Shown: positions 12,303 to 47,945, counted from the first letter of the stretch. The stretch is 64,000 nucleotides of DNA from Nemertoderma westbladi (GCA_032718475.1 JAUCBJ010002827.1:1-64000); one strand, 5' to 3'. Made by a program: numbers and translations. Notes: generated from the letters alone by a model not told the origin.

Positions 12303-12337
12303 CTTCGAACCGAATTGCTCTCTCAAACACAGTAACT

Positions 12338-22566: not shown

Positions 22567-22644
22567 CCGCTCCCAGAAAATGGGATTTGAGTCTATAAAA
22601 TATACAAAATCACAGTTTCTAATATACGTAAATACTCTAAACAG

Positions 22645-25600
22645 TTAGTCTTTCTTGCGCGGACGGCGTTTACGCAGTTTTTTAAAGCTAGCCAGAGTCC
22701 TTTTCTCTTTGGGGCGAGCCACTTTACAAGGAGGGCTATAACTCCTGGGTGAAGGGTGCAATATGATTGCATCAGAGGGTGTAGGATTATGGTCGGTGTA
22801 TCCGCCAGTCGAAGTACCGGGTTGATTGACATCAACGTCAGGGGAGAGAGGTCTAACGGCTTTGAGAGCTCGTTTCAAGACAGCCGCTCTTACGGGTCCT
22901 TTACGAGTGGTCTGAACGAGGGCCGTGGGTGGACCATAGGCAGTTAGAAACCTCCGGGGTTTAATGGTCCTTTCCAACTCGTGTTCGCGGGCTCGGTATT
23001 CGTAAGGCCGTCGATATACTTCCTGTAACTCGGGGTGTGAGTTAACAAACAAGTCTCCATAGTCCGGATCCTGACGGATATAATTGATTAAGTTATAGGA
23101 ATGAAGGTCGCTAGGATTAACACTCCTGAGAAATTTGCGTACGAATTTGGTTGAAATACATTCTCCGACGCGCTTCAGTAGCTCGTAACTTGATATGCGT
23201 GATTTCTGTTCAACCGAAGCGAATAGATAAGGATGGAACGCATAAACTCCTTCGTAAGCGCGTCCGGGATAATAGCGATGGCGCGAATCACAATGTAAAT
23301 CAGCGTTCGCTTCCCAAGCTCTGATGTAACGTAGTGTGATCATTTCATCTACGCTTTCCAAATCGTGATTAAAAGGGCAATCGAAACTGGCATATCCCTT
23401 TAGTTGACAATGGTGACATTGAGTCATAAATTGAGGGCAAACCGCAAAGATATGCAAGTTATTGAGTCTGCAATATGCGCAATAAATTTCCATAGTCGGT
23501 TGTTCTTGGAAATAGGAACAGCGGACGTTGGTGTCCATGGGCGTATCGTGGTCTCTCGATGCGCATAACCGACAACGTTGCCTAGAAACATAGTTGGCAT
23601 GTCGATAATCGTACGCAGTGAGACACTGTGGACCTTGATACCATTCTATGATGTAATCGTTGTCGCTGTTCCGGGGCGCGATAGGCTGAATCTCTTCAGA
23701 TTCTAGACATATTGGTTCGTCTTCCAAGTGCATAGCTGAAGTGGGCGCGTCTGTCTCTTCAGGTGGACCTATTGTCTGAATTTCCACGACAGAATAACCT
23801 GTGGGGATTCGAGGTCTTTGTATAACAGAGGAGTGCAAGTTCGATATACAAATCTCTTGGAAAACGGCGAATCCAGCGCTATCCAACTTCTCTGCAGCTG
23901 AGTTTCTTAGGCTGAGCTTGGTCAAAGCGCGGTCTTTAAATTGGCTATCCACGTTGCGGAACGGGGTTAAAAATCGCCGGAAACATTCGAAACGGATGAA
24001 TTTATTATGTTCATCTAGCTTAGCGAGTTTGGTCCCAAGTATTAATGGATGGGCGCGTATAGTACGACTGCACACATCGGCTAGCCAACCGGCAAGTGCG
24101 GTGTTTTCAAAGATCGTGTATATAGCTAAGGAGGGACGGAGTGGAACACTCATGAAGCTATACACGGCGCCAGGTGCGGTCAATGGTCCATCAAAGTATA
24201 ATCGAGAATAATGGTCTCCGTATACTTGTTGATAGTTAATGGGATTTCCGACTTTGAAATTCCATCCGTATTCCTGAAAGGCAAGATGTCCGATGGAAGT
24301 TCGTTGCACCTTTGTAATGTTGCTAGACGTATTAGCATACATAGTGCGGAAGAAACCTCGACCTTCTGCCCAGGGAGCAATCAGCTGAGTATCAACGAAA
24401 GGGTATGGAATGTTCTCCATATTCCGAAAGTCGTTTTGGAGATCTCCATAAACAGCTGAGCCGATTTTAAGGATTCTTTCATTGAACAACATCTCGAGTA
24501 CGGGCTGGGGTAACATCGATCCATCGATGCCCATGGCCGGTTTGCGTTCGGTGTCAATGAAGTAACGCTGCGCGAGTTCGAATTGTCCATGTCGGAGATT
24601 CTTTTGTGTTTCAGTGAGAGTTTCAAAAGAATAATCAATCACGTCGGAACACGCTCGAGTAAACACGTGGGTAGAACCAGCTAATCCGCGTATGTGGATC
24701 ATGCGCGTAGTTCCTAGTTCTCCGACCGGAACGCTACCTTCATTATCGTAGGTGACAACTCCATACATCTCAATAACATTAAGAGTTTCATTCCACTCCT
24801 TGGTGGCGTTCTCTAGGGTCATCCCTACTGGATGCCACAAGGTGGCGCATTGGTTAGCGTCAGGGAGATCACTATACTTCATATGCCGAGTGGTATACGT
24901 CTCCACATTTCCATATCTTTGTATTTTCTCTTCTTCAAATAATACATCTAGATTCCAATGGACTAATCGAGTTTTAATAAATCCATCGAGATTATAAGGA
25001 GGTTCTATATCTTTCTCGATTCGAGAAATGTTATATGGTTTTCTAAATGAGTTTACCTTTACTAACTGATCCAGATGTTTCTGCAATTGTTCGAGTTCGA
25101 CAATGTCTAGAGGATTTATTAGTGGTAGAAACTTTAAATTATGTGTCGGGTCTTCTGGTTTTACCATATAATATTGAGTCAGATTAACGTAATAAGGGTG
25201 GTCTTTAATCCCATAAAACGAGTTCTGTAAAGGTCTAGCGCGTATGTTGACATCGTGTACCATACGACGGACAAGATCCGCTCGATTGTCCGGAGGTTCA
25301 ACGAGTATACCGTCAACACGAGCGGCCTCGATCGGCGGACGCTGTAACATAGGGGCGTCAGCGATAAGATTTTGCGATCCTGTACTGATATCAACCGGTT
25401 GAGGTTGTATCGTCGCGAAGAGCTTGTCCCCGAAATGTGGAATCATCGAGGGATGACGAACGGTTTTAGAGTAGAGGTCCGTCATGAGGATTTGAGCTTC
25501 CGGTTGGGCTAAAGCGGCTTCTTCTCTCTCTTCCAGTTTCGTGTGTTTCTCTTCGAGTAGATTTTCTTCCGCTTGTCTCTGTAAGCGTTCATCTAAAAAT

Positions 25601-26898
25601 TCTTGTAGAGAATACGTGCGTCCAAGCTCGATGTCTTCCTCGAGGTTTTGGATTTCTCTATCGAACTGTGGCAAGGCTAACTCCTTCACCGATTGGACTT
25701 GTTGTTGTAATTTACGTTTCTCTAAACAATCTTGTGTTCCCTTTCCGATTTTCTGTCGAATGGCGTCTAAAGCGTTTCTTATAACGCTCTCCTCGACTTC
25801 CGTGGCGGGTTGCATCGGGTTTAATCCTGGACGATTGTAAGGATCAAAGGGCGATATTAGCTGCCCGCGTCCCAATCCGGCTAAGTAGGATGGGCGGATG
25901 TCTAACGAACCCACTACCGGAGCACCACCGATTAATTGTTCGGGTAACACTAAGTCTTTGAACAGGGAATATAGTTCGGGAGGATCAGTGATACTGTTAG
26001 GATCAAGAGTTTGAGGTCTCACTAGGGAATGAGGAGGCCTGACCGAGTATTCCGGAACTCTGATCATGGGTTTATTCAGTGATCGTTTAAGACGAGCGAT
26101 CGTGGGTGGTATGTCGAACAGGTTTCGCTCGAAACTCCCGTAAGTGTAACACGTAAAACTATGTTTAGCGCAACGTCTCCGCGGATGTTTGTGTCTTTCA
26201 GTTTGTTGGTTGGGTCTAGGGCATTCGTCACAATAATACCAAAGACGTACGTCCTGTAGAGGAAACGCGGGTGAACGTTCTCCAGTTTTGCAATATTCTT
26301 CCATTTGTTCAAAACTATCCGGGATAACAGGTAGTGGACGATCGGCGGTAAGATACATCATAGTGAAATAGAGCCGTTTGAGTTCTACCACAGGGTCGTG
26401 ATGTATACCTTGAGGATATCGAGTCTCTAAGTTCTGCTGACTAGCGATGTTGAGATAGGTTTCTCTCAAAAATTCTAGGTATTCGTTGAAGTCGATGCGT
26501 TTATCCGGTTCTTCAACGTTTTCTCTTTCCAGTCTATTACGAATAGAATTTTCGTGATCTATTCTCGGTTTATCGTTACGACTCCGCTGGGTATGATATT
26601 TAAATAGAACCATTTCCCTCTCTGTATCTACATCGTCCGTATCATGTAAATCGATAGGATGGCCGGTCGTTAAGAAGTCCATATACGTACCATTACGATT
26701 CGTATAGCGAGTGGTGAATTTTCGATAGTCCAATTCACGCGCAAGTTGCTCTTGGGACATCGGCGGTTCGATATAACGACCATCGTCCTCCGTAATGGTT
26801 GGATCGGCTTCACCGCGTATTAAGCTATCCACAAATGCTTGTAAAGGTAGAGTATATCGCTCCCTAATACCAAGATCATCTTCTATCAACTCCGTCAT
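22645..26898 (-). CDS. Accessory ORF: 1417-aa protein with DEDDy-type 3'-5' exonuclease-like domain, three CCHC-type zinc knuckles, coiled-coil and basic C-terminus
   Basis: ExoI VVTYDNEG (~24736-24759); ExoII LPQPVLEMLFNERILKIGSAVYGDL; FVDTQ; ExoIII-like PLRPSLAIYTIFEN. Knuckles CRLCASRDH..C, CAYCRLNNLHIFAVC and CHHCQLKGYASFDC (~23375-23580). C-terminal KKLRKRRPRKKD. Confidence 0.8.
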   Translation of the reverse strand: MTELIEDDLGIRERYTLPLQAFVDSLIRGEADPTITEDDGRYIEPPMSQEQLARELDYRKFTTRYTNRNGTYMDFLTTGHPIDLHDTDDVDTEREMVLFKYHTQRSRNDKPRIDHENSIRNRLERENVEEPDKRIDFNEYLEFLRETYLNIASQQNLETRYPQGIHHDPVVELKRLYFTMMYLTADRPLPVIPDSFEQMEEYCKTGERSPAFPLQDVRLWYYCDECPRPNQQTERHKHPRRRCAKHSFTCYTYGSFERNLFDIPPTIARLKRSLNKPMIRVPEYSVRPPHSLVRPQTLDPNSITDPPELYSLFKDLVLPEQLIGGAPVVGSLDIRPSYLAGLGRGQLISPFDPYNRPGLNPMQPATEVEESVIRNALDAIRQKIGKGTQDCLEKRKLQQQVQSVKELALPQFDREIQNLEEDIELGRTYSLQEFLDERLQRQAEENLLEEKHTKLEEREEAALAQPEAQILMTDLYSKTVRHPSMIPHFGDKLFATIQPQPVDISTGSQNLIADAPMLQRPPIEAARVDGILVEPPDNRADLVRRMVHDVNIRARPLQNSFYGIKDHPYYVNLTQYYMVKPEDPTHNLKFLPLINPLDIVELEQLQKHLDQLVKVNSFRKPYNISRIEKDIEPPYNLDGFIKTRLVHWNLDVLFEEEKIQRYGNVETYTTRHMKYSDLPDANQCATLWHPVGMTLENATKEWNETLNVIEMYGVVTYDNEGSVPVGELGTTRMIHIRGLAGSTHVFTRACSDVIDYSFETLTETQKNLRHGQFELAQRYFIDTERKPAMGIDGSMLPQPVLEMLFNERILKIGSAVYGDLQNDFRNMENIPYPFVDTQLIAPWAEGRGFFRTMYANTSSNITKVQRTSIGHLAFQEYGWNFKVGNPINYQQVYGDHYSRLYFDGPLTAPGAVYSFMSVPLRPSLAIYTIFENTALAGWLADVCSRTIRAHPLILGTKLAKLDEHNKFIRFECFRRFLTPFRNVDSQFKDRALTKLSLRNSAAEKLDSAGFAVFQEICISNLHSSVIQRPRIPTGYSVVEIQTIGPPEETDAPTSAMHLEDEPICLESEEIQPIAPRNSDNDYIIEWYQGPQCLTAYDYRHANYVSRQRCRLCASRDHDTPMDTNVRCSYFQEQPTMEIYCAYCRLNNLHIFAVCPQFMTQCHHCQLKGYASFDCPFNHDLESVDEMITLRYIRAWEANADLHCDSRHRYYPGRAYEGVYAFHPYLFASVEQKSRISSYELLKRVGECISTKFVRKFLRSVNPSDLHSYNLINYIRQDPDYGDLFVNSHPELQEVYRRPYEYRAREHELERTIKPRRFLTAYGPPTALVQTTRKGPVRAAVLKRALKAVRPLSPDVDVNQPGTSTGGYTDHNPTPSDAIILHPSPRSYSPPCKVARPKEKRTLASFKKLRKRRPRKKD

Positions 26899-27711
26899 AT
26901 CTGCTATCTGAGTTTATTAATATCAAATAAGTTTATATTTAGGCGAGCGGGCGTCGCTGCCTACTTCTCTTTGCCCCCGGACAGTGGGATTCTCAGCGCC
27001 GATGTACCGTCGTCGCGGTGTTTACGCCAACATGTAGCAACAGCACGACAACGATAACTGGCACAAGTCACTCCACTGTCCGTCCCAAAGGCTTGGATCC
27101 ACTTAGGTTCTTTCTATAGGAGAGTTGGGCTACTTTTACAATTGCGACTAGCTACTGTAAACATACTTTAGCAGTAACATTCACCTATAAACGCACAAAT
27201 TCCACACAACTGTCACCAACTGCACACATACAGGCCATTTGTCCGTTAGTCAGTGCCTTCCAGAATGTCACGTTATTACTGTGTATCCTTGGATACTAGC
27301 AGTGTGCTATATTCTCTATGCTATGCAATGGGACAAGCTTTCTATTGTTCTTTTAACTTGCTTCTAATTCTAGCGTGGGTGTTGCTATGGTGACATTATG
27401 GAATGCTAGCGGTAGAATTAGGGTAATTCTCATGCATACAGATCTGGGATGCTATTTAATAATAATTCTTTAATTGTCAATATCCTCTTTATGCATGATT
27501 TTATTAATTTTATCGGCTATTGACTATATGTTGGAGATTCTCGCACTCTAATACACTCAATAGGATGAATCTCCGCTCCCATGATCTATTAATTAATGGA
27601 ATTTTGGGAATGTTATAAATTGTACAAAATGACAATTTATGAAATTCATTTAAAATATGAATTTAAATTTATTCCCGTGAATTTTATTATTTGATGTTAA
27701 AATTGACACAA

Positions 27712-27976
27712 TTTGATTCCAGAGCAGGTCTGGGGACATAGGATCCTTAATTCTATGAAATTTGTCTTTTAAGAGTATCGGTAAGTGCTACGATATCTTA
27801 ATCGACTAGAATTGTTAACGGATCTGAATTTTACAGATTGTAATAAATATTAAATTAATATTTAAGATGGGCACCGATTTATTCCAGAGCTTGTCTGGGG
27901 ACGTTAACCACTGATTCTAGAATTGGTCTTTCAAGTATATCGGTGGGTGCCGCGATATCTTAATCGACTAGAATTA
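27712..27976. repeat. Two ~100-bp imperfect direct repeats in the integrase-accessory ORF spacer
   Basis: ATTCCAGAGC..TCTGGGGAC...CGATATCTTAATCGACTAGAATT at ~27716-27813 and ~27881-27975. Confidence 0.8.
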
Positions 27977-28523
27977 CAGATGGTCAAAAGGTTTAACAGA
28001 TTTATTTGCGTTTTACGCTACTGTTAGAGGGACATCACGCTACTATATGTATTATTTAATATAAGGTAGAAGAGCAATATCGCACGAAGCAATGTCAGTG
28101 TGAAGAGGCAAGTCGTTTCCAAGGTCTACCCAGAGCTTGGTTTAGCCGAGACACGAGGATCTGAACTTTGCATTCCTAATACTCTGCCTACTAATAATAC
28201 TTGAATATAGTAGTGGCTTTATTGTACTTTAAGAAGTATGGACATTTCATCTTACTGTAGTCACGTATTTATAATATGATACGGACAGTAAGGAAAGAGA
28301 AAAATAATTATTTTCTCGCCGTCGCACTAAATATATATTATAAGTAATTACGTACGTAATAAACACTAATATATCGCACTAATCTACTAAATAATCACTA
28401 AAATAACATTCTACTAAATAAAATTGAATAAAAACGATTATAATAAAGTACATAATAAAGTTCGCATATAAAAATGTAATAAAATAGATAAAACAATATA
28501 GTCATACACCCACTCCAGACGTA

Positions 28524-30062
28524 TCACGTTGGGGAGTCCCTAGATGTTTGAGGAATTAGGGAGGTGGTCGTGGGAAGAGTGTCTTGCCTTCCATAGTTTC
28601 CAGAGAGTTCTCTGTCTCTTTCCAGTAAACATAAACGACCAACTGGGCGATTGAGTTGTTGCGTCTCAAAGATTATGCCTGGCTTCTTGAAGTTACGCCG
28701 CATGACGACAAGTTCTACTGAGCGCACTAAACCATCATCCGAGATGTGAGTCTCGATGATACGACCTGTCTGCCACCGTTTACGTGGGAGGTCTGGATCT
28801 ACAATAAGCACCATATCTCCGGCGCTGACGTTTTCTTGCTGCGCAAACCACTTAGTTCGAAGTTGTAGCGTGGGCAGATAATGTTTCTCGAAATGGTCAG
28901 CAAAACGACGGGATAGCAACTGCATAAGTTGCCAAGTTCGACGGCAGTATTCGTCTCCGTCGGCAATCTCCGATCGTGGGAGCATGGCTACAGGTTTCTT
29001 CAGTAGGAAGTGCGCGGGTGTTAGCGCTTCCAGGGAATCGGGACTCGATGAGACTGGCATAAGCGGTCTCTCGTTGAGATAGGCAGCAATTTCCTCCATT
29101 AATGTCCGCAAAAGTTCGTCGGTGAGATACGCGCGGCATGGCACTATAAAGTGAAATGCGGTTTTGACACTTCGAATTAATCTCTCCCAACTTCCTCCCC
29201 ACCAAGGGGCGTCGGCGGCATTGAAGGTCCAGCTAGACGCTGTTATCCTTAGCTGGTCGTCCACCTGTCTTTGGTTCCAGTCCTTCACGTAAGCCTGTAT
29301 TTCGTTGTTGGCACCAATGAAGTTCGTTCCCTTATCCGATCTCATGGTATTACTCGTCCCGAAGCGAGCGATCTGTCGTCGTAAACTTAAGACGAAGCTG
29401 TTGGTAGATAGATCGTTCACCATATCGAGATGGATGGCTCTACAAGTCATGCACACGAAGATGACACACCATCTCTTGACTATAGTCCTAGCACGATATA
29501 CTTCAATAGGGCCAAATAAATCTACACCAGTATTAGTAAAAGGTGGTTCATAGAAGCTTACTCGTTCCCTAGGTAATTCTGCCTCTCGCTGTGTTAAAGG
29601 CCTACTGAATGCCTTCCTACAGGGTATGCAGTTCCTAAGAACTTGGTTCAGAGCTCTACGGGGTTTATCAAAATAATAGCGAGTTCGAATTTCGCTAAGA
29701 ATTCGTTCTCTACCAGCATGATAAAGTTTACTGTGAACATCTACAATCATCTTGATTTGTACATCAAGATTTCTAATAAGTATGGGGAATTTGGTGTCAA
29801 AGGATAAGGGCGCATTGGTGAGTCTTCCTCCAACACGTATTAACCCATCTATCATTGTGCTCGAGAATCGATCCCTTAAGCGCATCTGCGGATTTCTCAA
29901 CAACAGGAAATACTTTTCGGAATCCTCATAGCATTGCAGGAGTCTCAGTATCTGCTTATTGGTTTCTTCATGTTCCTGGTGACTAATTTTATCCTTTAGA
30001 AAACGGTCAGATGTCTTATATTTGGGTAAATTTTTAATAACATGAACGTGTGCAGATGTCAA
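28524..30062 (-). CDS. pol: BEL/Pao integrase
   Basis: HSKLYHAG...CIPC zinc finger; PFTNTGVDLFGP; SDKGTNF; APWWGGSWERLI; C-terminal domain ending RPVGRLCLLE. Confidence 0.93.
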   Translation of the reverse strand: MTSAHVHVIKNLPKYKTSDRFLKDKISHQEHEETNKQILRLLQCYEDSEKYFLLLRNPQMRLRDRFSSTMIDGLIRVGGRLTNAPLSFDTKFPILIRNLDVQIKMIVDVHSKLYHAGRERILSEIRTRYYFDKPRRALNQVLRNCIPCRKAFSRPLTQREAELPRERVSFYEPPFTNTGVDLFGPIEVYRARTIVKRWCVIFVCMTCRAIHLDMVNDLSTNSFVLSLRRQIARFGTSNTMRSDKGTNFIGANNEIQAYVKDWNQRQVDDQLRITASSWTFNAADAPWWGGSWERLIRSVKTAFHFIVPCRAYLTDELLRTLMEEIAAYLNERPLMPVSSSPDSLEALTPAHFLLKKPVAMLPRSEIADGDEYCRRTWQLMQLLSRRFADHFEKHYLPTLQLRTKWFAQQENVSAGDMVLIVDPDLPRKRWQTGRIIETHISDDGLVRSVELVVMRRNFKKPGIIFETQQLNRPVGRLCLLERDRELSGNYGRQDTLPTTTSLIPQTSRDSPT

Positions 30063-30075
30063 TGGAGCGTTATCA

Positions 30076-31035
30076 CTAGTGGTCTTCGTCCTGGAGTAGT
30101 GATGATGAAAACATCGTCTTTAAATATGTGACGGCTTTACAGAGCCGATTCCAGGAACTGTAATGATGCATTGCTCTCTGCAGCATGGGTGAGATTCCTT
30201 GCGAGACGTCTGGTATTCCAGATTTCCAATCTCTATCTCTAATTTCCACAACAGACTTATTTGTGTTGAGGGATTGTGGATCCGAAGCATCATTCCCGGA
30301 AGTATGTAATACAGATAGATCGATAGTCGGTTTAAATAACTTCGATTTACTCGCCCGGGTTTTAGGTTTGACTGTCTCCGCTCCCTTGGCTTGTCTAATC
30401 TCCGCCGTAGTAAGGTGAGGAGGCCATTCATCCTCTTCCTTGTTCAGGAAGTCGGGTCCACCCAACCAATCTGGAGTATCTATCAGTTCCTGTGGAGTTG
30501 CTCCCCTGGAGGCGATATCGGCTGGATTAATCGTACCAGGGCAATGTCTCCATTGATCTATCTTTGTGCGACTAAGAATAATAGCTACTCTGTTAGTAAC
30601 AAAAATGCTGAACTGACAGACTTCATTGGTTAGATACTCCAACACGAGTAAAGCGTCAGTCCAATAAACCGTTTTCTCCAGTGGATAGTCGATTTGTTCC
30701 GTTACGTTCCGGCCGATGGCTGTAGCGTATAAAGCCGCCTTTAACTCCGCTCGAGGAACCTTTAACTTGTTGTTAATCAATGCCTTAGAGGTAACCAAGG
30801 CGACTTTGATTCCATCCGGAGTTTCGACTCGCAGATATGCTACTATACCTATTCCCATGTCGCTGGCGTCTCCAAACACATGGAGTTGATAAGAATACGT
30901 AGGAAGAACATGGCCAAAATATGCACGAGAAATTATAAAGTTCTCGATGGCAGGTAGAGAATCTTCCCATTTCATCCATTTCTTTAACAATTCTCCCTTA
31001 AGCGGATCGTCCCATGAGTGGTTTTCAAGCCACAT
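30076..31035 (-). pseudogene. pol: BEL/Pao RNase H region (Pao peptidase A17-type), out of frame with the integrase
   Basis: SWDDPL, LHVFGDAS, PRAELKAA, WTDA, FVTNRV and WRHCPGTINPADIASRG motifs. Confidence 0.9.
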
Positions 31036-31043
31036 TTGTTGTA

Positions 31044-32894
31044 CTAAACTTCGACCGCCGAAGCGGGAGTCGCCAACATTGTAGCGGGCTGACGCGGGAT
31101 GACAGGAGACAAATCTTTGATTTCTCTCTCAGATTCCAGGACAGGGATATTCTCATGGACTGTTCTACCGGGTACAGGCAGTGTAGTACTGTGTAAAGGG
31201 AACTTAGAGTTAAGCTCTGGAAGTACAGGGGTCTCTAGCACAGGAGTGACTTTGGGAACGACAGGCCTAATTATTTCAGGCTCATCAACTATAGTAGGGA
31301 GTTTTTTGACCTTAATAATTTGGTCTGTAGGTTCTATTCTACTTAAGTCTGTGCTAGCTAGTTGTCTTCTCACAGCTGAGGGCAAATCAGGCAATTTGTG
31401 ACGGTAAGATGTTTTTCTACGCCTGCTTAGACGAGATCTATTTCCTCCGCCTTCAGGATCGGTGGTTTCGCTTTCCTCCGATGACGTATATCCCTGGCGT
31501 TTGGGAGTAGATCTTCTCATCATCTGCATGTGACTAGCAGTTAACTGTTTATTTATGTTGTCTTGCGTCTCTTGCAGATTCTCCAACTCCAGTTGGGTAG
31601 TCTCCTCAGAGGCTCTCCATTCTGCTTCTGCCACTGCCTTTGCTGCTTTTCTTTCTGCTTCTGCTTCTGCCTCCGCTGCCTTTCTTTCTACTTCTGCTTC
31701 TGTCATGGCCGCCGCCTTTTTTTCCTCTATCCGTCTTTTCTTTACTTCTTCTTCCTGGACTCTAGCGAGGCGAAGTTTTTCATCAAATTTAGCTTGGTTT
31801 GCAGCTAACATTTCAGCATCGATTGAGTCTAACACACGCTGGGTTCCTTCACTATTAGGGGAAAGTCCAGACAGCCGTCTCCTCAACTCTTCGTCTCCTA
31901 GGAAACGCTGATAGTCGGACAGATAAATGTCGATGGCGTCTCTCGTTCGTGGTCTCTCTGCGGTCTCTTCGCCTTCCACTTGAGAAAGGGTGGCATCGGT
32001 TGGTTCTTCATAGGTTAGTCTCTCAGACAGCTGGGATTTCCACTGGTCCGTTTCTTGTACTTTGAGACCTACCCGCTGGAACCAAGTTTTGACAGCAACC
32101 TGCAGCGACGTGTCCTGTCTTCTTTTGGAAGTTTCCTCAAAGGCTGATAGGATTAGTCTAATGCGTAGGGTTCTTTCACGTACTTGATAAAGCAGCTCTT
32201 CCTGCTCTTGAGGTCCTTGGGGTTGTCGAAACAATTGTTCTTCCAATCGCTCTAAGGAGCCGAAGAATCCCTGCACATATCCTGCTGCCGACCTCTTCCA
32301 AACAGCTGGATCCATCGTATCTTTAGCCACTCCCATCCTGTGTATATCTTCCCAAGTAGCCTCGGACAAATCTAACGGGAGTCCGGGTCCGGGAAAGTTC
32401 CATTGTGACTCGACAACAGACATCAATTCTCCCCTGGCGTATCCCGCATAATTATCTTGGGTCGCGCTCATACTTCTCGCCCAATCGGCTTGATGTTCTT
32501 CCACCGCAATCAATATAGTAGTTAGTACTGCGGCAGGAAGGGTGAGAAGGGGGTCCGAGTAGGCTGTAGCCGCCATCTGCAATCCGCATTCGGGGGTCAG
32601 CTCTACAGTATCCGAACTACTGGAGCTATCTGATCGCTGGGAACAAGTTTCTTGACTAGGATGTTGCTGCTGTTGGACAGCTGCTTCCTGGTTCCGCTTG
32701 ACTTGGGCCCGAGTGCCGATGATAGACCTACGGTGTTGGATCAGCTTAGGGTCTGATACTACTACTGGAGGGATGACTTTTCTTTCAGTAGGAGGTGAGC
32801 TGAACTCCTTTCTTAATCGCTCCACACTCCTATCTGTGTCACAGATGGTTGTATCGATTAGACTGTCTGACAGGTTTTGCTGGGTGTCAGACAT
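31044..32894 (-). pseudogene. gag: N-terminal part of Gag, truncated by an internal deletion that removed the Gag core, protease and RT
   Basis: 616-aa charged/coiled-coil ORF at the gag position, joined at ~31040 directly to the RT-RNase H connection. No protease or YVDD motif is visible anywhere in the element. Confidence 0.7.
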
Positions 32895-32974
32895 GTTTAG
32901 CTATACAGTTGAATGCTTACTGCTATAGTTACAGTTAAAGCAAGTCTAGTAATTCAGTATGACCGTTGGCCTAG

Positions 32975-35065
32975 TACCGGTAATTTATTACAGTATATTA
33001 GAATACCGGTATGCACTTATAATATATATAAGTATTGTAAACTAGTTTTGTCACAGAGTACCGGTATATAAATTTAGCACAAATATATATAAATATATAA
33101 TAGGCCTATCGTGAATACCGGTATACAGCTTACACTTATAGTATATATAAGTATAATTATGAACTAGAATTAATTACAGAATACCGGTATGATTTTAGCT
33201 CAAATTTATAGAAATAAATATAATAAGCCTATGGTAAATACCGGTATGTCAATTATTTTAGAATAATTGAATTTCTGAATATTTTAGGGTTACTTGGTTA
33301 CTTTAACTTACTTTATTACCGTTATTTAAGCAGTAGTCCAACTGATATTGAGACCTAGTTGTTGTATGGCAGGCCTACTATTTATAAATCGTTTGAGTTG
33401 ATTTATAATAGATATATACCCGTTTAAAAATGGGTTTTGTCAATATTTGAAATAAATGTTATTATTTCTGGGGGGTCACTACACAGAAGCTGTGCGCTCT
33501 CAGTGGAGTGCTACTTATGGGACACTAAAACAGATAATTCTAATTTACCTAAGTTACTTAATACTACAAATTACTTACGATACGGGTGAGATTAAATCTC
33601 TAATTAAACACAACAAAAATATTATGTACGAATTTTTAGGGTAATTTTACAGGAAGTCTACAAACCAGCCTAACAAAGGGTTAGAATTCTGGTTATTCTA
33701 TCGGACAGGGTACTACGGTATTTAAAATAATAAGTAGTAGTAAATATATTGCGCTGTCCAGATAGGAAAATACCACCGCCTGACGACCTATAGCCGTATC
33801 GCTATAGGTACTACGTTATGTATCACGGAGTGTTCCTACCTGGAAGTTAGTTACCGCGGACTACCAGATCCAGCGTGCCTATTAACCACTTTACAACACA
33901 AATATACTGCCTACACACTAATTACCTCGGAAAGCACTGTACACTAAACCCTAAATTAGGTACAAATACTGGTACAACAAATAATCAGTAGTTAAATATA
34001 CTTGAACAGTTAAAAGAACCACGGCATCTGCTGGAGTGACCGAAGCACAAAGTCACCAGTCTTTTCCTACGCCAAGCAGCCCATGTAGTACCGGGGTTAA
34101 TTTAACTATAACGGTATGTGTAACAAGCACAATTACTGTAGGAATAAACTTGGGGACACGAATGTTGCGAATAATCGCATAAACTCTGAATAATAAATAT
34201 TACGCTACCCATACAGAATACTCAAACAAAATACAAACCAAACGCTGGCAGACTACCACCAAGCCCAAATAAACTACCGTACGTGTAGATTCCGAAATGG
34301 TTAGTTAGTATGCGTTCTAACACGGTAGTACGACTTATTCTTTAAGAGGGGATTGACCTTACAGCTATGGCTGCCCCAACTTACTAACTGGCACTTTATC
34401 AGACAAACTCTACACACGCAGCAATCTCTTCAGACCTAATAATAGCTAGACAACAATCCAGCCTACAAAATATCTGAGTAATAACTATTACGGTACCTGA
34501 ACAGACCACACAAACAAACACAGGCCAAAACGTTGGCAGAATACTGTCAAGCCTAAATAAACTACAGTATGTGCAGATTCCAAAATGGTTAGTTAGTATG
34601 CGTTCTAACACGGTAGTACGACTTATTCTTTAAGAGGGGATTGACCTTACAGCTATGGCTGCCCCAACTTACTAACTGGCACTTTATCGGACAAACTCTA
34701 CACACGCCGCAATCGCTCCAAACCCAACAACAATCTAACAACAGTCCGGCCTACAATTATCTGAACAATCTGAGCAGACTTACACGTCTTCAGCTCAATA
34801 TTAACTTACTAGGAAATAAAACTGACAGAAATAAGTAAAGTCTCAATAAAAAACCAGGGCTGCAGTCCCTGATTAAATACTAAGACCTACTGGTATACAA
34901 TAATCAAAATCGAATAATACTAATGTACTTATACTGGAAGTACCGGTTAGGACAGTTGGGCCTACGGACCTACAGAAGTACCAGTTCTGGCAGTTGGGCC
35001 TACTGACCTACAGAAATACCGGTTCTGGCAGTTGGGCCTACTGACCTACAGAAGTACCGGTTCAG
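32975..35065. repeat. Repeat-rich 5' leader of BEL element 2
   Basis: ACCGGTAT units spaced ~60 bp apart (32975-33250), a ~190-bp direct duplication (~34235-34420 and ~34525-34710), and three ~37-bp units CAGTTGGGCCTACTGACCTACAGAAGTACCGGTTC (34950-35065). Confidence 0.8.
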
Positions 35066-35128
35066 GTTTACCGGTCGACCGGTACTTTCAACTTTATTGC
35101 TTACTGCAATAAAGACAATAACTGTTAT

Positions 35129-36376
35129 TGTACGCGCTTTTGAAGACCTTTAGCAGTTTAACCTGCCAAAATTTATATGTCTTTTGGTTTATAAATAGAC
35201 TTTAGAAGTTGACAAATATTTAATACCAATAAACACAACATTAGCAGAAGCCAGCCTAGTGCGCGTCCATTCACCCGCTGGATATACCCGGGAGACTGGA
35301 TTCTGAGGGCTTAGATTATTATTGCAGTGTAAGCTTACTGTATTATTCGATTGATCGTTAATAAATAATTTCTGACTAATATTATTCACTTTCGGGAAAT
35401 ATTAACAGTTCCTTTAGGACGTGGCGCTCTATCTAGGTAAACAGAGATATGACTTATACTAATCACAACGGTAAGTCGGTAAGGCTTATGATTCACGTAT
35501 GAGGCGCATTCTTTAGGAAATGCTTAGTTATCAGTCACAATCAGGCACACTACCGGTAACACACAATACTGCTCACTAATTTGCCGACCGTCAATGAATT
35601 TTATCATATATAAAGAGAACAGCAACGGACTCATGTAGTGCTTATCAAATAGCATTAAATTCACTACAAACCACAATAATATAAGTCGCAATCGCTATAT
35701 ATAACCCGTCTCTCTAACCTGTAGTGTATCAAGAAAATTGGGAAATTTGGGTTCTTTATAGATATTCTCCAAATAATATTCAACCAAACAATAGTAAATA
35801 GCAGTATAATAATGTATATTGAACCGATAATGTAAAACTGAATTGCGATCAGTTGATATGATAAGATAACAGTTATACGCTCTATAATTTAAGCCTACTA
35901 ATGTTTCTTCTAAAGTATGAAAACGAATTGACTCTAGAGCCGGTGTTCCTGGCCTAGATAGCAACAACACAACAGTATCAAGAAAAAACAGTAAGACTGA
36001 ACACTCCTAGTATGATCGGCCGAATATCTCCACATCGACAGAAAAAATTGCTCTGATTGGCTTAAGCTAAACAAAGAACCATGTGTCCAATGGCTGTTCC
36101 CATGTCAGCAACCAGCTGTTAGATGTCGTAATCTGAATCATCAAGGCTAAGCTGTGTAAAGGTATTTGGTGCATTGCGGGTTTTTTGCCTTACCATGTCC
36201 GCCAAAACACGTATATAGAAGAATGACTTTTATGTCCGTTAAAACACTCATAACGGTACCTTGCGGGCGAGGGGAATATATATATAGTTAGAGAGCCTTT
36301 TAGAGTATTCCAGTGCCTGGGGGGAAACTGGATTGCGAAGCAAAGGGGCCAGTTATATCCCACAGAAGCTTTTACA
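35129..36376 (-). repeat. 5' LTR of BEL element 2 (1248 bp)
   Basis: Near-identical to 21319-22566 and followed by TSD GTAGT. Confidence 0.96.
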
Positions 36377-37186
36377 GTAGTAGATATCCGGCAACTACAG
36401 TCACAGACACCGACTTTGCGGAAGACATCGCCCTGCTCTCTAATACGCTAACAGATGCACAGCTTCTACTAAATAAAGTAGAGAGGGCTGCTAAGGAGGT
36501 TGGATTGCATATAAATGCTACCAAGACTGAATTCATGACCTTTAATGTTGATGGAAACTTGACAACAATTGATAATGGTCAACTAGGGAGGGTCGGCGAC
36601 TTCCAGTACCTTGGATCATGGATAGAGAGTAGCAAAAAGGACATATAAGTTAGGAAAGCAAAGGCTTGGGTAGCTCTCTCAAAAATGGATACCATCTGGA
36701 AATCAGATCTCTCCAGGCACCTGAAGACTAAGTTCTTTCGAGCCATAGTGGATAGTGTATTTTTATACGGGGGTGAGACCTGGACACTGACTAAATCACT
36801 TGAACAACGAATTGATGGTTGCTACACAAGACTACTAAGGGCAGCCCTAAACATCAGCTGGGGACAACACATGGCAAACGCCGAGCTTTATGGTACAATA
36901 CCACCTGTATCAACCACCCTCCGTGAACACAGATTAAGATTCAGTGGGCACTGCTGACGAAGTAAAGACGAGGTCATACCAAATCTACTTTTCTGGCAAC
37001 CAACTCATGGAAAGCGTAGTTGTGGACGACTGGCCATAACATACAGTATATAGATCAACTTGAAAGGAATACTGAACTTGGGTGAAACGAAATTGCGACA
37101 ACTATTGAGAATCGGGAAGCCTGGAAGGATCTCATTTCCACTATCCGAGTTTGCTCGACCTAGTAGTAGTACAGTAGTAGTTGTAG
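36377..37186 (+). mobile_element. RTE-clade LINE, 3' part
   Basis: SRYPATTVTDTDFAEDIALL, GLHINATKTE, FQYLGSWI, LYGGETWTL and RLRFSGHC; ends in a (TAG)n-like tail at ~37161-37186. Confidence 0.9.
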
Positions 37187-37520: not shown

Positions 37521-37734
37521 GAGATACTAAGTCCAGCCCGGAGATACTAACTCTGGCCCGGAGATACTAAGTCCGGTCCGGAGATACTAAGTCCAGCCCG
37601 GAAATACTAAGTCCGGCCTGGAGATACTAAGTCCAGCCCGGAGATACTATGTCCGGACCGGAGATACTATCTCAGGTCCTGAGATACTAAGTCCGGCCCG
37701 GAGATACTATCTCAGGTCCGGAGATACTAAGTCC
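37521..37734. repeat. 20-bp minisatellite GAGATACTAAGTCC(A/G)GCCCG, ~11 copies
   Basis: Exact 20-bp periodicity. It is preceded at 37466 by CTACGGAGCCCCTAAAGGGACATGG, possibly the end of a truncated MITE. Confidence 0.92.
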
Positions 37735-37789
37735 TTGATTTATTGTTTAAGCACCAAGTGTCCTTGTTTATGTTCGACGTTCACACTAA

Positions 37790-38040
37790 ACTCCATCCCT
37801 CCTAACTCTGACCTTGGTCAGCTCTTTTCTAAAACATCTACAGTACATAGCTACGCTACTGGTGCTGCAACTAATCTCAATTTTTATATCCCCCTTGTTA
37901 GACTTTCTTCCACACAACGATCCATGAGTTTCTTGGGCCCATTCATATGGAACGCAATCCCAGTGATTATAAAAAAATAATAGCACAAAGAGGACTTTCT
38001 CAAAATATATCAAGCAATACTACCTATCTAAACTATAACT
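37790..38040 (+). mobile_element. 3' fragment of a CR1/L2-group LINE
   Basis: HSYATGAA...FYIPLVR...RSMSFLGPFIWNAIP...FSKYIKQYYL resembles the ORF2 C-terminus of this group. Confidence 0.6.
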
Positions 38041-39299: not shown

Positions 39300-40609
39300 A
39301 TTTCTTTCAGGTGATTCACATTACTGACGTTTTTTAAACTGTTGACTATTCATTCATTTATTTTATATTATATTTGTCTGTTTGTATATATGATATATGG
39401 TTTTGATTTTCCTATACTGAATTCCAGAACGAGGAGTTCCAGGAACAAATTGAGTATCGGATCCGGTACCAGTACCGGCGGGCGGGGTACTGGCTCCAGC
39501 CACGTAAATGCGGCTATTTCCACCCCCAAAGGAAGTGCTACGAAATCTAAGTCGAAGAAACAGGGCGGAAGAAAATCCGGTGCAAATTGACATGTCCAAA
39601 CTTTTCTATTGTGATAACTGTCCACCCATTTTCATAAATAAAGCCGATTGCAATCAACATGTAGCAGAGTGCGATCCATCGGTTACTTCTACTAGCGACG
39701 TTTGTCCACATTGTGACACTGCAGTTTCTGGCACTGACTGCCTGGGATGTGAAGTCTGTGGTTGTTGGGTTCATGGACGGTGTCTCAACCTAACCACCGT
39801 GGAAGTTGCCACAATTGGGGAGTGCAAAAACTGCGTCATTATCTGTAACTCTTGTCTCGGCCGTGGTAAGGTCGGCCTCATCAACCAAACGGAAGACGGG
39901 CTAGATTCAGTGATTTCGAAAGTACAGAAGTCCCTTTCTGATCACTAGGATCGGATTTCTGCCCAGATCTCGTGTCTTCGTAGTGATCTGGGTGATGACA
40001 CTTCCCTGTGGAACACGGTCAAATCAAAACGCTCGAACTCCTCTAAAGATTCCACTATTGGCGGTCTATCAGCCGACGATGTAGATAAAGAGGTTCAAGA
40101 GCAACGTCGATGTGAACAGAATATCGTCATCCGTCAGTCCGTGGTCTATCCCTACCTGAAGTCAGTTCTAACGACATTGGTTTTGTCAGCGAATTTATCT
40201 CTAGTGAGTTCGGCAGTGACACTGCTGTTAGTAAAGTACTATATTAACTTATTTATTTATTTTATTTACTTATTTATTATACTGTATTCAAAACTTGCAT
40301 CGTGTCTTGCTGCCCCATTATCGGTTATTTTTCAGGTTTCTTTTATCGGCCATGCTTTACCTACTATTTGGTTGACAGCATAAGTTGTACCTGTGTACAA
40401 GAAAAATGATGCTTCCGACCCTTATAATTACAGGCATGTTTCACTTACTTACATAGCATGTAAAGTAATGGAATTGTGCATTAAAAAGGAATTGTTATCG
40501 TATTTATATTTGCACAAACTTATAAACAAGGCACAGCATGGTTTCCTGAAAAAACGTTCGACCTGTACCCAACTATTGAACTGTGTTAATGAATGGTAAC
40601 AATGTGTTG
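39300..40609 (+). mobile_element. CR1-clade LINE, 5' part: ORF1 with zinc finger and PHD finger, then start of RT (endonuclease deleted)
   Basis: MSKLFYCDNC..H..C; PHD CPHC...CEVCGCWVHGRC...CNSC (39592-39948); RT-proximal VVPVYKKNDASDPYNYRHVSLT and QHGFLKKRSTCTQLL. Confidence 0.85.
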
Positions 40610-40810
40610 GCAAGCTGTATTTTTCGAGGAGTTTGTTATTATACATTTATTATAGGAAGGGATCTAGGGGTCTTAACCTCGAATGATAAGTTTATTTTAC
40701 CGAAAATAACTTATCTTTTATTGGCGCAATTGTAGGACTAATCCCATCACATGCGTACTTTTTAACCGGGTAGTGTACAAATTTAGGAATCGCGTAATTT
40801 TTCTTGAAAT

Positions 40811-40934
40811 TAATATCTCATATCTCTCCAAACCACGTACGCGTTTCGACCTTACTGGGTCTCATCAGCGTGGTGTCGGATTCGAACCTGGGACCTCGAG
40901 GTGGAAGCCGAGATTACAACCACTAGGCCACAGG
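40811..40934 (-). mobile_element. tRNA-derived SINE/retrozyme-like element (Pol III head + hammerhead ribozyme)
   Basis: Minus strand has A-box TGGCCTAGTGG and B-box GGTTCGAATCC followed by a hammerhead. Flanked by the 10-bp direct repeat TTCTTGAAAT (40801-40810 / 40935-40944). Confidence 0.85.
40832..40874 (-). ncRNA. Type I minimal hammerhead ribozyme
   Basis: ACCACG-CTGATGA-GACC(CAGTAA)GGTC-GAAA-CGCG-TA-CGTGGT: perfect core, 6-bp stem I, 4-bp stem II, palindromic minimal stem III and GUA cleavage triplet. Confidence 0.92.
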
Positions 40935-43809
40935 TTCTTGAAATATGGGGTATTAATTTCAAAGCCAGCTGCCATTTTATTAGCCACTGATTTTTGATAA
41001 TCAAAATTCTTCATAGCCTGCGGCACATGCTCCGCCAAGAAATCTCTGAATTCTCCCCGATTCTCCGGCGTCCACCTGTCCAAATACCTCTGCGTATTTA
41101 TCACTCCGGCATACGACGCCGCCTTCGACACCTCCTGATAGGTAAACGGAAGTCTCCATTTTATAATCTCCAGGTGGGCCTCTTGGTTGATATTAAAGAA
41201 TGGCCTTCATCCGCTGTCGGGTCATGGTACCGACGTCAGCCCACTCCTCGAAGATCCTAAACTTCTCCTCGTCGTCCATCCAGTCGCACTGGCGTCCGTA
41301 GTGCCCCCGGAAGTTGCACTTAGAGCACCGGTTGTGCAACCGTGGACACGCCCCCATCCTATGACTCGACTCGCGGCAGTAGAGACAGCTAGTCCCCTTT
41401 TGGAATTGGTACAGGCAGTTCCTTTCCTGGTAAGTTTGCCTCCCGCAGTAATCGCAACCGAGTACCAATGCCTCCCACCCCATGTCGTCTTTCCTCCCAA
41501 GCGATCTCCTCGGTCTATGGAGTCGCTGGTAAGCGAACTTCTGGACGTTAGCGTCCCTGTCCACGTCTATCTCCTCGCCCCTCCTGGGCATCGTCTCCCC
41601 GAATACTACCCATGGTGCCATTCCCGGTTGCTCGCCCAACCTGATGGTGCTCCCCGCGAAATCCATCGCTGGCTCCTCATGCACCCAGGCCCGCTTGCCG
41701 GGTCTATCCCAGAAGGCCCTCGCCCCGCTGGCCATCACCACTCTCCCGCCAACCCAGTCTGTGCCCGATTGGCCGATCCTCCCAATGGGCGGCATCTCTC
41801 CGAACTCGTCGTCATCCTCGTCTTCCTCAGGGAGTGGTTCCAATCCCGGTAACCCGGTGGATCCACTGTGTCCCTTCCCACCTTGGCTCTCGCCCATGAT
41901 TCTCCATCCTTCCAGCTCCCCCGGCCTCCTCTGCACGAAATCGCCCTCGGCGCCCGCTGGTATGGGTGTCACCTGCAATCCCGATGTCGACTGTTTCGGT
42001 GACCCTACCGTCCACCCCAACTCTCGCCCTAGAGACTCGCCCGAACTCCCTGATGATGTCCAACGAAGTTCGTCTAAGGCCGCCTGTTCCTCGAACCCGT
42101 AGCTCTCTGCTCTGGCTGCCTCCTCCCTTTCTTCTGCCTCTCTCCTTTCTCGTCTAGCGATTTCTTCCAATCGCTTCTCTTCTCGTCTATCCGCCTCTAG
42201 CTGCTCCCACCTCTGATATGGCGTATCCGCATCCCTGTCTACTAGATGTCGGCAGTTATAATACACCGACTCGCCCTTCAGCCCCGGGTGGTCTACCAGA
42301 CCCTCGAAAGCCACTCTGAAGGCTCTTCTGTAGTTCAGGGGTGATCCCGATAGCAGGAATGCTGTTGGTTCTCTCTCGATAACCACGGTGATGAATAGGT
42401 TTAGCAAACCTATCATTATCCAGTCCTCCTGCAGGATATATCGCTTCTGATATACCTTTATCGCTCCTCTCCGGAATTGATACACCTCTTGCTTCCCCGG
42501 CCTCGCTCCCCACTTCAGCGAGTTTGCCAACTCCGCTCCGTACTCCTCCCTGATTTTACCCCAGTCCATTGTTTGTGGCATACGAGTCCCATTAGCTGGC
42601 CCATCGCCACCGCTCCACAATGGCCCGCGTTCTCCACTAGTCCCAACCCGTCTGGTGCCATCATAGCCATGTAGACCGTTTGCGTATCCAGGAGGTTGGA
42701 GGTCTCCGGACCGATGATCCTCTCCGCATCGTCGCGGATCGCCGATCCCACCTTTATCGTCGACTTCTCCCTTACTAGACTCTGCACCGCTTTCGGCAGC
42801 CGGTTCAACTTCGGTCCGTTCTTCTTCCCATACGTTCCTAGATCGAACAGGAATATATCCCCATTTGGCGCGGCCAAATGCAGGAGTATGGTTCTGGCCG
42901 ACCCCGCCGACCCTCTTCTCGAACCTTCCTTGTCTTCCACGGTCCCCTCATCGTCTAGGACCATGTATCCTCCCCTGCTGACGGACTCTACGAACCTCTT
43001 CCAATCCTTTCTCGGTGGCTCCTTTGCGTACTTCGGTATCCCGAACTTCGCCTCGTCTCCCTTCACCATGTAGTGGAAATGCTCGAAGATCGCATTGTCT
43101 AGCGACGGTGTCCCGTAGGTCCCGACCAGTCGCTGTTCGTGCACCTCCCTGAAATGGTCCTGCAGCGCTCGCGCTTTGTGACCCCTCTCTAACCGCTCGT
43201 AGTATCCCCTCGTCTTTTCTTCCGGATGCCTCTCGGTGAAATCCACCAGTATCTCCTTCCCTCCCAACTCCGCCTTTCTCTTTCTGACCAGTTCTCCGCC
43301 ATTTCGAACTTTCCCGATCGCTCACCTATAAGATGGGGCCTTGCCAAGGCACAATATAAATGAGTGATGTGGTTTGGATGGTCTGTACTGTCCGATAATG
43401 GCCTATCTCTCACTGTATGTTAGGTTATCGCCTAATTTTCCTACCCTAATTTCCTAAAAGTGCCAAATTCTGCTAAATTTCGTAATTCTGTCCGTTACTT
43501 AAATTATGTTCCAGAATATTTCTCCTACTGTTACCATAATTTGTCTAATTTTCTATTTTTATTTAATTTTAATATTTAATTTTATCCTACAACTGTATTA
43601 TCAATATCTGCTAATGGATTATTCTACTTTATAATCCATATTCTAGCCTACTCTATGGGCCTGTGCAGTACAGCAGTATGTATCGCGTGGCCTACACGAT
43701 TTATCCAGCTGTACCCACGTGCCCCCCTCTCGCTACCTACCACTAACTCTACTAACTTTCCAACTGATTTCTACTAATTCTTACCATATACTATATTATA
43801 CATATCCTC

Positions 43810-47940: not shown

Positions 47941-47945
47941 TGGTA

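What the first reader, a model, noticed from the sequence alone, without database searches (positions are those of the whole stretch)
22645..43302. Two divergent BEL/Pao retrotransposons share an env-position accessory gene: DEDDy 3'-5' exonuclease + triple zinc knuckle
Seen: elements 2 and 3 have dissimilar LTR, leader and gag sequences. Yet both carry, after the integrase and a repeat-containing spacer and in the same orientation, a gene with the same ordered motifs: VVTYDNEG/YMVLDDEG, LPQPVLEMLFNERILKIGSAVYGD/LPKAVQSLVREKSTIKVGSAIRDD, FVDTQ/LLDTQ, YTIFE/YILQE, three CxxC knuckles, and WEANADLHCDSRHR/FEEWADVGTMTRQR. Established: this pattern is that of the DnaQ-like DEDDy family (RNase D, WRN-exo, EXD1/2, Mut-7/Nibbler), several members of which act in small-RNA/piRNA pathways. 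From memory, DEDDy extra ORFs have been reported in bdelloid rotifer Ty3/Gypsy elements and Terminons; I do not know of a BEL/Pao lineage with this exonuclease-knuckle architecture. Inference: motif conservation across highly diverged copies points to an old, selected function. Candidates are anti-silencing (trimming piRNA/siRNA), RNA 3'-end or primer processing, or RT proofreading.
Basis: partly seen in the sequence, partly recalled or inferred. Interest (0 to 1): 0.92.

Follow-up and report, generated by a model that had tools for sequence, protein, structure and literature searches.

The report
BEL/Pao retrotransposons carry nuclease-knuckle gene
Two distantly related jumping genes of the BEL/Pao group carry, where an envelope gene would sit, an extra gene for a predicted RNA-trimming nuclease joined to three zinc-finger-like knuckles; selection has kept its nuclease part in one family, and it likely acts on RNA to help the element, possibly against the host's small-RNA defence.

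Summary
Element 2 (15.1 kb, LTRs 99.5% alike, 5-bp target duplication) carries an open 1,417-aa third gene but has lost protease and RT. Element 3's copy is broken and its second LTR was not found. Pfam does not name either protein, and their direct nuclease alignment is marginal. An independent public protein (P0002) links both and carries the same knuckles, which were not in the query. The three-sequence profile matches RNase D-type exonucleases (hhalign 91%, E 9e-7). All motifs lie in order, but ExoIII reads Y-x3-E, not Y-x3-D. Among other copies of family 2, 36 of the 40 listed differences in the nuclease region are synonymous. The protein has no membrane segment, so it is not Env. Element 2 also lacks a tRNA primer site and shows a Tf1-like self-priming match. 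DEDDy third genes are in print for rotifer Ty3/gypsy elements and Terminons; my searches found none for BEL/Pao. The scan earlier noted such genes in gypsy elements, and self-priming BEL/Pao elements, on other DNA, but not this combination. Function is untested; anti-silencing is my best guess (about 35%).

The parts
35129..36376 (-). E2 5' LTR, 1,248 bp, TG..CA; TSD at 36377-36381
21319..22566 (-). E2 3' LTR, 6 mismatches to the 5' LTR; TSD at 21314-21318
35118..35128 (-). E2 primer-site position: no TGG within 60 nt of the LTR; these 11 nt are the exact complement of LTR nt 501-511 (candidate self-priming site)
35866..35876 (-). LTR nt 501-511 in the 5' LTR (22056-22066 in the 3' LTR): candidate self-primer
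31044..32900 (-). E2 gag 5' remnant, no DUF1759 hit; meets the RNase H region near 31054 (capsid, nucleocapsid, protease and RT missing)
30076..31128 (-). E2 RNase H region (Peptidase_A17, E 8e-27)
28524..30119 (-). E2 integrase (Integrase_H2C2, DUF5641 E 2e-20), in a different frame from the RNase H region
26899..28523 (-). E2 AT-rich spacer with a two-copy repeat (27697-27813, 27862-27975)
22645..26898 (-). E2 third gene, open, 1,417 aa from the first ATG: about 690 aa of unknown N-terminus, exonuclease, linker, three knuckles, conserved motif, basic tail; no membrane segment
24079..24813 (-). E2 DEDDy-derived domain: ExoI Asp 24745-24747 and Glu 24739-24741; ExoII Asp 24442-24444; ExoIII Tyr 24118-24120 and Glu 24106-24108
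   Evidence: selection:
23377..23574 (-). E2 three CxxC knuckles (first with long spacing, third with Tyr at the His position)
23275..23316 (-). E2 post-knuckle motif shared with E3 and P0002
22567..22574 (-). E2 short purine-rich tract before the 3' LTR
47946..52494 (-). E3 gag region, in several broken frames (DUF1759 E 3e-9 in 47946-50252)
46159..48024 (-). E3 protease and RT, start of Peptidase_A17
44450..46239 (-). E3 RNase H and integrase, broken; stop near 44590, C-terminal part and DUF5641 absent; 33% identical to the E2 integrase over 186 aa
43799..44346 (.). E3 spacer tandem arrays (periods 37 and 51/105)
42515..43321 (-). E3 third gene, first piece: ExoI (42944-42967), ExoII, DTQ motif; frame break near 42570-42600
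41193..42600 (-). E3 third gene, second piece: ExoIII (42426-42440), linker, knuckles (41286-41456), post-knuckle motif, stop at 41193-41195
40817..40935 (-). tRNA-like stretch followed by a minimal hammerhead core at E3's 3' break; probably a separate insertion

Best explanation
Both elements carry a third gene after the integrase, kept by selection in family 2, that encodes a predicted DEDDy-derived 3'-5' exoribonuclease joined to three zinc knuckles, and it likely protects the element by trimming or destroying host silencing RNAs. Shown: position, architecture, motif order, purifying selection, absence of a membrane segment. Inferred: the fold (profile match; structure only low-confidence); a separate transcript (1.6-kb spacer, own ATG); the knuckles binding single-stranded RNA, as in nucleocapsid and Air2; two-metal catalysis with Glu as fourth ligand; the substrate. 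The protein would act in trans and outside the particle, which fits its survival in a copy that has lost RT. I put gene identity and selection at about 0.9, catalytic activity at about 0.65, and the anti-silencing role at about 0.35.
For: hhalign of E2+E3+P0002 against 11 bacterial RNase D/PolA exonucleases: 91.3%, E 9.4e-7, 99 columns from ExoI to the DTQ motif. NCBIfam RNase D on E2: E 0.0025 and 0.019. Four motif blocks rank first among all windows in P0002; in E2 ranks 3,1,1,1; in E3 ranks 2,1,1,1, in order. Foldseek ranks 1-10 are all EXD2, then WRN, REXO2, RNase D; VIA-align ties Egalitarian and EXD2 at Z 3.2-3.6. P0002, found with the nuclease profile alone, also has three knuckles and the post-knuckle motif; its knuckles match retroviral nucleocapsid (E 1e-4) and Air2 (E 0.064). 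36 of 40 listed differences are synonymous against 23-30% expected; crude pN/pS 0.03-0.05. Acidic ligands and the Tyr are kept in three proteins only 25-33% identical. Relatives work in small-RNA pathways (mut-7, EXD1: PMC5408684 discussion; Nibbler recalled), and arenavirus exonuclease suppresses innate signalling (PMC7968707, abstract start).
Against: No result bears directly on substrate or on silencing. ExoIII has Glu for Asp. No Pfam hit on the window proteins; the DEDDy profile scores them only at E 1.0 and 1.6 among 729 segments; all Foldseek E-values are 0.12 or worse and the model has pLDDT 36. The hhalign match stops before ExoIII and had no negative control. The 40 sites are the best-supported of 141, not a random sample. 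P0002's genomic context is unknown. Host enzymes of this class mostly build small RNAs rather than destroy them, and piRNA 3' ends are often methylated (recalled). The roughly 690-aa N-terminus is unexplained.
Confidence: 0.38

Rival explanations
1. The enzyme matures the element's own RNA: the knuckles anneal a piece of the transcript's 5' end to the primer site and the exonuclease trims it back to the duplex edge to make a self-primer, or it trims genomic 3' ends.
For: E2 has no tRNA-type site; its first 11 nt after the LTR complement LTR nt 501-511 (12 of 5000 Markov simulations; only 7 of 12,551 internal 11-mers have a complement in the LTR, one being this position). Knuckles resemble nucleocapsid. 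The rotifer paper names 3'-end processing first.
Against: The 11-mer is nearly palindromic, duplex energy is reached by 8 of 200 shuffles, and the transcription start is not known. Self-priming is described for Tf1/sushi and plant lineages with no exonuclease mentioned in the passages read; Tf1 uses its RNase H (recalled). Unchecked scan notes list many self-priming BEL/Pao elements without mention of a nuclease. No route into the particle is evident. E3 shows no contiguous match.
Confidence: 0.24
2. The domain is a non-catalytic RNA-binding module, like Egalitarian or EXD1, that packages, shields or transports element RNA, for example into the germ line.
For: ExoIII Asp-to-Glu in all three proteins; Egalitarian is among the tied top structural matches and its catalytic residues are dispensable (PMC13186709 passages); EXD1 and Maelstrom are inactive derivatives.
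Against: Three acidic ligands and the Tyr persist at 25-33% identity and the fourth stays acidic; none of the 4 non-synonymous listed differences touches a ligand, and 5 of 5 listed differences in codons 718-724 around ExoI are synonymous.
Confidence: 0.2
3. The domain proofreads for reverse transcriptase or trims cDNA ends, allowing a large genome.
For: E2 is 15.1 kb even without protease and RT, above the 4.2-10 kb of the family; WRN and EXD2 act on DNA; Dada transposases carry a DEDDy domain thought to trim DNA ends.
Against: It is a separate gene, not fused to Pol; it is joined to knuckles; best profile hits are RNase D; family copies range from under 90% to over 99% identity.
Confidence: 0.07
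4. The gene is a passenger: a captured host gene, or part of another element. At E3 it could belong to a Penelope/Terminon-like unit, since a hammerhead lies just downstream.
For: Terminons carry DEDDy genes and 3' hammerheads; a hammerhead core lies about 300 bp past E3's stop; E3 has a deletion between integrase and the gene and no 3' LTR.
Against: In E2 the stop lies 78 bp from the 3' LTR inside a TSD-bounded element; strong purifying selection; all 30 bins from pol to the gene are covered in four runs; E3's minus-strand purine bias (0.58-0.69) runs unbroken from gag through the gene and ends near 41000.
Confidence: 0.06

Closest known systems
DEDDy ORF3 of bdelloid rotifer Juno and Vesta LTR retrotransposons, shared with Terminons (PMC5408684; parts 2-3 of 5 and passages read)
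   Same: RNase D-like 3'-5' exonuclease gene in the env position, no membrane segment, altered acidic motif, function untested.
   Different: Those are described as retrovirus-like rotifer clades with gypsy-type integrase tails (Ty3/gypsy assignment recalled) and motif DEED; here BEL/Pao, motif D-E-D-E, three knuckles, a long N-terminus, and clear purifying selection (the paper found no departure from neutrality for the env and GDSL ORF3s it tested). Sequences could not be compared.
Cellular DEDDy exonucleases: RNase D, EXD2, WRN-exo, EXD1, Egalitarian
   Same: Motif order ExoI, ExoII, DTQ, P-L-x6-Y ExoIII register; best profile and structure matches.
   Different: ExoIII Glu; about 30-40 extra residues between DTQ and ExoIII; fused to knuckles; no significant hit to any curated model.
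BEL/Pao retrotransposons, Belpaoviridae (PMC8742986, whole text; PMC3118150, passages)
   Same: LTRs, Peptidase_A17, DUF1759, DUF5641, order PR-RT-RH-IN, third gene after integrase.
   Different: The third gene described is env-like; 'exonuclease' occurs 0 times in the 2011 survey's main text. E2 is longer than 10 kb and lacks the tRNA-Arg/Gly primer site.
Tf1/Tj1 self-priming elements (PMC4600332, PMC6317226; passages)
   Same: Primer-site position complementary to the element's own LTR.
   Different: Described for Ty3/gypsy and some copia lineages; here one BEL/Pao copy, start site unknown.
Dada DNA transposons with a DEDDy domain (PMC3706591; passages)
   Same: Mobile element carrying a DEDDy domain.
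   Different: Inserted within a DDE transposase, all four DEDD residues canonical.

Membership tests
DEDDy (DnaQ-like) exonucleases | ExoI D-x-E | tested here: met
   Aligned to RNase D D28/E30 by hhalign; present in E2, E3, P0002. E2 has a second, higher-scoring D-x-E block at aa 781-790, too close to ExoII and not aligned with the other two.
DEDDy (DnaQ-like) exonucleases | ExoII Asp | tested here: met
   Rank 1 block in all three; aligned to RNase D D85.
DEDDy (DnaQ-like) exonucleases | ExoIII Y-x3-D | tested here: not met
   Tyr in register but Y-x3-E in all three. I file it as a DEDDy-derived variant, not a canonical member.
DEDDy (DnaQ-like) exonucleases | RNase H-like DnaQ fold | tested here: inconclusive
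   Model pLDDT 36; top matches nearly all DEDD nucleases but E 0.12 or worse, Z 3.6 or less.
DEDDy (DnaQ-like) exonucleases | Two-metal 3'-5' exonuclease activity | not testable with these tools
   Needs an assay.
CCHC zinc knuckles | C-x2-C-x4-H-x4-C spacing | tested here: inconclusive
   Met exactly by E3 knuckles 2-3 and P0002 knuckles 2-3; the others depart. P0002 matches nucleocapsid at E 1e-4.
BEL/Pao (Belpaoviridae) | Pol signature and order PR-RT-RH-IN | tested here: met
   E3 has all four in order; E2 keeps RH-IN; Peptidase_A17 in both, DUF1759 in E3, DUF5641 in E2. I file both as BEL/Pao on this ground.
BEL/Pao (Belpaoviridae) | Paired LTRs with target duplication | tested here: met
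   Met for E2; no pair found for E3.
BEL/Pao (Belpaoviridae) | tRNA-Arg/Gly primer site and 4.2-10 kb size (typical traits in the ICTV profile) | tested here: not met
   E2: no TGG in 60 nt, 15,058 bp. A departure from the described members.
BEL/Pao (Belpaoviridae) | Placement in an RT tree | not tested
   No reference RT set was loaded; E2 lacks RT.
Env proteins | Transmembrane anchor | tested here: not met
   Highest 19-residue hydropathy 1.2 in E2 and P0002, 1.6 in one E3 piece.
Rotifer Juno/Vesta/Terminon DEDDy ORFs | DEED motif and common descent | tested here: inconclusive
   Motif differs; their sequences were not on hand.
Tf1-type self-priming elements | Primer site complementary to the transcript's 5' end | tested here: inconclusive
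   11-nt complement in the LTR found; start site not mapped.

The most novel reading that the evidence does not exclude
An old, undescribed BEL/Pao lineage has replaced env with its own nuclease-plus-knuckle RNA machine, an active D-E-D-E exonuclease, that either destroys host piRNAs/siRNAs or cuts the element's own self-primer to length: a retrotransposon-encoded nuclease with a defined role in beating silencing or in tRNA-free priming.
Probability: 0.3. Interest if true: 0.85.

Novelty: new variant of a known kind. Interest (0 to 1): 0.62.

Why it matters
Exonuclease third genes were described in print for rotifer retroelements, with no function and no evidence of selection. Finding one in a second LTR superfamily, under strong purifying selection and as an intact 1,417-aa gene in a young copy, suggests repeated recruitment of the same enzyme class and gives a clean substrate for biochemistry. 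How retrotransposons persist against piRNA silencing is a long-standing question; an element-encoded nuclease makes one answer directly testable.

Tried and rejected
No host genome was held, so no genome-wide tblastn or RT-versus-nuclease tree. Word-based protein searches: 0 hits for E2 aa 680-1260; only P0002 itself for P0002 and for the three-sequence profile. Of 2 hits in the 1.84-billion search, P0001 was dropped as a repeat artefact (9 stretches of a 2,611-aa repetitive protein). Locus scans: nothing in viral contigs or the first metagenome scan; the one locus of the second (L013) matches a single knuckle only and was dropped. Plasmid tblastn: nothing. PDB sequence searches: nothing significant for the nuclease; the profile's 21 hits were 20 designed repeat proteins and RNase D at E 1.7. 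Single-sequence fold useless. The ESM Atlas and the wide structure search did not complete. Expression: no RNA holder listed; run X4 is only guessed to be RNA, so nothing is concluded. E3 self-priming: no contiguous match; a split match across a GT-AG interval at the candidate LTR end 52553 had no control and a second such match appeared elsewhere, so it is inconclusive. Homology past E3's stop is weak (7 and 70 of 1000 shuffles). No paper found on a D501E Klenow change, so activity with Glu at ExoIII has no cited support. Element 1 (about 11740-19165) shows no match to the gene. ARAGORN found no tRNA gene.
Full report
What is there. The window holds three BEL/Pao elements. Element 2 (E2, minus strand, 21319-36376, 15,058 bp) has LTRs of 1,248 bp with 6 mismatches, TG..CA ends and a 5-bp target duplication, so it inserted recently. 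Inside lie a 2.2-kb leader, a gag 5' remnant, the RNase H region, the integrase, a 1.6-kb AT-rich spacer and one open frame of 1,417 aa whose stop is 78 bp from the 3' LTR. Protease and RT are missing; no part of E2 matches element 3's RT. Loose contig ends pile up at 31054 in two runs (31 and 5 contigs), so other copies continue differently at that junction. Element 3 (E3) has gag, protease, RT, RNase H and a truncated integrase, then tandem arrays, then the gene in two frames with a stop after the knuckles. No second LTR was found. The integrases are 33% identical over 186 aa: these are distant families.

Are the two genes homologous? All ten motifs searched are in place. Directly, the nuclease parts align weakly (tblastn E 3.1; 4 of 2000 shuffles) and the knuckles clearly (E 0.001; 0 of 2000). 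A profile of the two nuclease parts, read against 1.84 billion proteins, gave 2 hits at E 0.001 or better. One is a repeat artefact. The other, P0002 (648 aa, one unnamed ENA contig), matches E2 at 9e-14 and E3 at 1e-7, and carries three knuckles and the post-knuckle motif that were not in the query (E 1e-12 to E3, 0.002 to E2). The architecture is therefore real and occurs elsewhere. Whether P0002 lies in a retrotransposon is unknown.

Is it a DEDDy nuclease? Curated models are weak: Pfam gives nothing for the window proteins and PF01612 at E 0.2 for P0002; NCBIfam gives RNase D at E 0.0025 and 0.019 for E2, nothing for E3 or P0002; PHROGs gives an exonuclease at 0.3. I aligned 11 bacterial RNase D and PolA exonuclease domains. 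hhalign of the three-sequence profile gave 91.3%, E 9.4e-7, over 99 columns from ExoI to the DTQ motif; E3 alone 73%, E2 alone 10%. A plain HMM search ranked P0002 first, E3 third and E2 fifth of 729 segments, at non-significant E for the window pieces. Scoring four motif blocks over every window put the expected sites first in all four for P0002, and first in three of four for E2 and E3. ExoIII keeps the RNase D register but ends in Glu in all three. The fold from three sequences has pLDDT 36; even so Foldseek's first ten rows are EXD2, followed by WRN, REXO2 and RNase D, none better than E 0.12, and a second alignment of those 298 chains gives Egalitarian and EXD2 at Z 3.2-3.6. No single test is decisive; together they point to one family. 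I call it a DEDDy-derived D-E-D-E variant. It has no membrane segment, so it is not Env.

Is it selected? Six of 7 listed public runs, from 4 studies, hold the E2 stretch; one may be the source sample. Four were laid. Tens of thousands of short contigs at under 90% to over 99% identity cover all 30 bins from gag to the third gene, as expected of a large repeat family. On 24090-24790 the tool listed the 40 best-supported of 141 variable places, and no indels or joints. Classed one at a time, 36 of 40 are synonymous against 23-30% expected (binomial p below 1e-14; crude pN/pS 0.03-0.05), and none of the 4 others touches a catalytic residue. From the wider laying I classed 34 of the 40 listed places (6 in the spacer dropped): third gene 8 of 12 synonymous, integrase 10 of 11, RNase H 3 of 4, gag remnant 1 of 7. 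The subset is chosen by support, not at random, and E3's family was not tested.

How it likely works. Shown: a separate, selected, non-membrane gene joining a nuclease-like domain to knuckles that match retroviral nucleocapsid (E 1e-4) and Air2 (E 0.064). Inferred: the knuckles hold single-stranded RNA and the nuclease trims it from the 3' end. The gene is not fused to Gag or Pol and survives intact in a copy without RT, which fits action in trans. My best guess is defence against host small RNAs (about 0.35), by analogy with mut-7 and EXD1 pathways and with arenavirus exonuclease (abstract start only). A local clue favours a rival: E2 has no tRNA-type primer site, and the 11 nt after its LTR complement LTR nt 501-511 (12 of 5000 simulations), as in Tf1 and Tj1. 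A trimming enzyme with nucleocapsid-like knuckles could finish such a primer. I found this before seeing the scan's notes; those unchecked notes report self-priming in many BEL/Pao elements with no nuclease mentioned, which lowered this rival to about 0.24. A non-catalytic, Egalitarian-like role stands at 0.2, proofreading at 0.07, passenger at 0.06.

What is known. PMC5408684 (parts 2-3 of 5 and passages; supplement listed, not read) describes DEDDy third genes in rotifer Juno and Vesta elements and Terminons, with motif DEED and no function. PMC6431247, PMC6338049 and PMC3706591 (passages) repeat this or add Dada transposons. The ICTV profile (whole text) lists only gag, pol and env for Belpaoviridae; the 2011 survey PMC3118150 (passages; supplements not read) has no occurrence of 'exonuclease'. 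PMC4600332, PMC6317226, PMC3601003 and PMC13186709 were seen as passages. Nine literature searches listed no BEL/Pao element with such a gene; Repbase, Dfam, GyDB and most subscription journals were not searchable, so an existing database note is possible. The scan's own notes list Rrp6-like and dead DEDDh genes in gypsy-type elements and none for BEL/Pao with an exonuclease.

Verdict. A real, selected accessory gene: a new variant of a known kind (exonuclease third gene), new in its host superfamily, its triple knuckle and its D-E-D-E site. The fold is well supported but not proven, the lineage rests on three sequences, and the function is untested. Interest 0.62.

Noticed in passing
window 35118-35128 and 35866-35876: Element 2 lacks a tRNA primer site; the 11 nt after the LTR complement LTR nt 501-511, a Tf1-like self-priming signature.
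   Followed up: partly
window 40817-40935 (minus): A tRNA-like stretch followed by a minimal hammerhead core (Rfam HH9, 26.6 bits, below the cut-off of 52; E 0.012 in 36 kb) at element 3's 3' break; single copy in the window.
   Followed up: partly
window 31044-32900: In element 2's gag remnant 6 of 7 listed family differences are non-synonymous, unlike integrase (1 of 11) and the third gene (4 of 12); small sample.
   Followed up: no
window 23724-26529 and 28652-30378: Contigs in three and in four runs join across these stretches, so internally deleted derivatives of the family exist, one lacking the nuclease domain.
   Followed up: no
window 11740-19165 (plus): A third, decayed BEL/Pao element without the accessory gene; what follows its 5' LTR resembles part of a tRNA-type primer site (resemblance recalled).
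   Followed up: partly
window 3899-6856 (plus): An intron-less 985-aa cysteine-rich secreted-type protein with eight WAP domains and further Cys repeats.
   Followed up: no
window 9159-10193 (plus): 3' part of a Penelope-like element (GIY-YIG, E 0.003) within a 692-bp inverted repeat 7993-8684 / 9778-10468.
   Followed up: no
window 24850-26898: The N-terminal half of element 2's third gene has no family hit; it holds a C-x2-C..H..C..H-like cluster near aa 228-255 and a charged helical stretch near aa 395-475.
   Followed up: partly
window 55983-56289, 57718-63815: Nested inverted repeats with 10-nt tandem arrays, suggesting foldback-type DNA elements.
   Followed up: no
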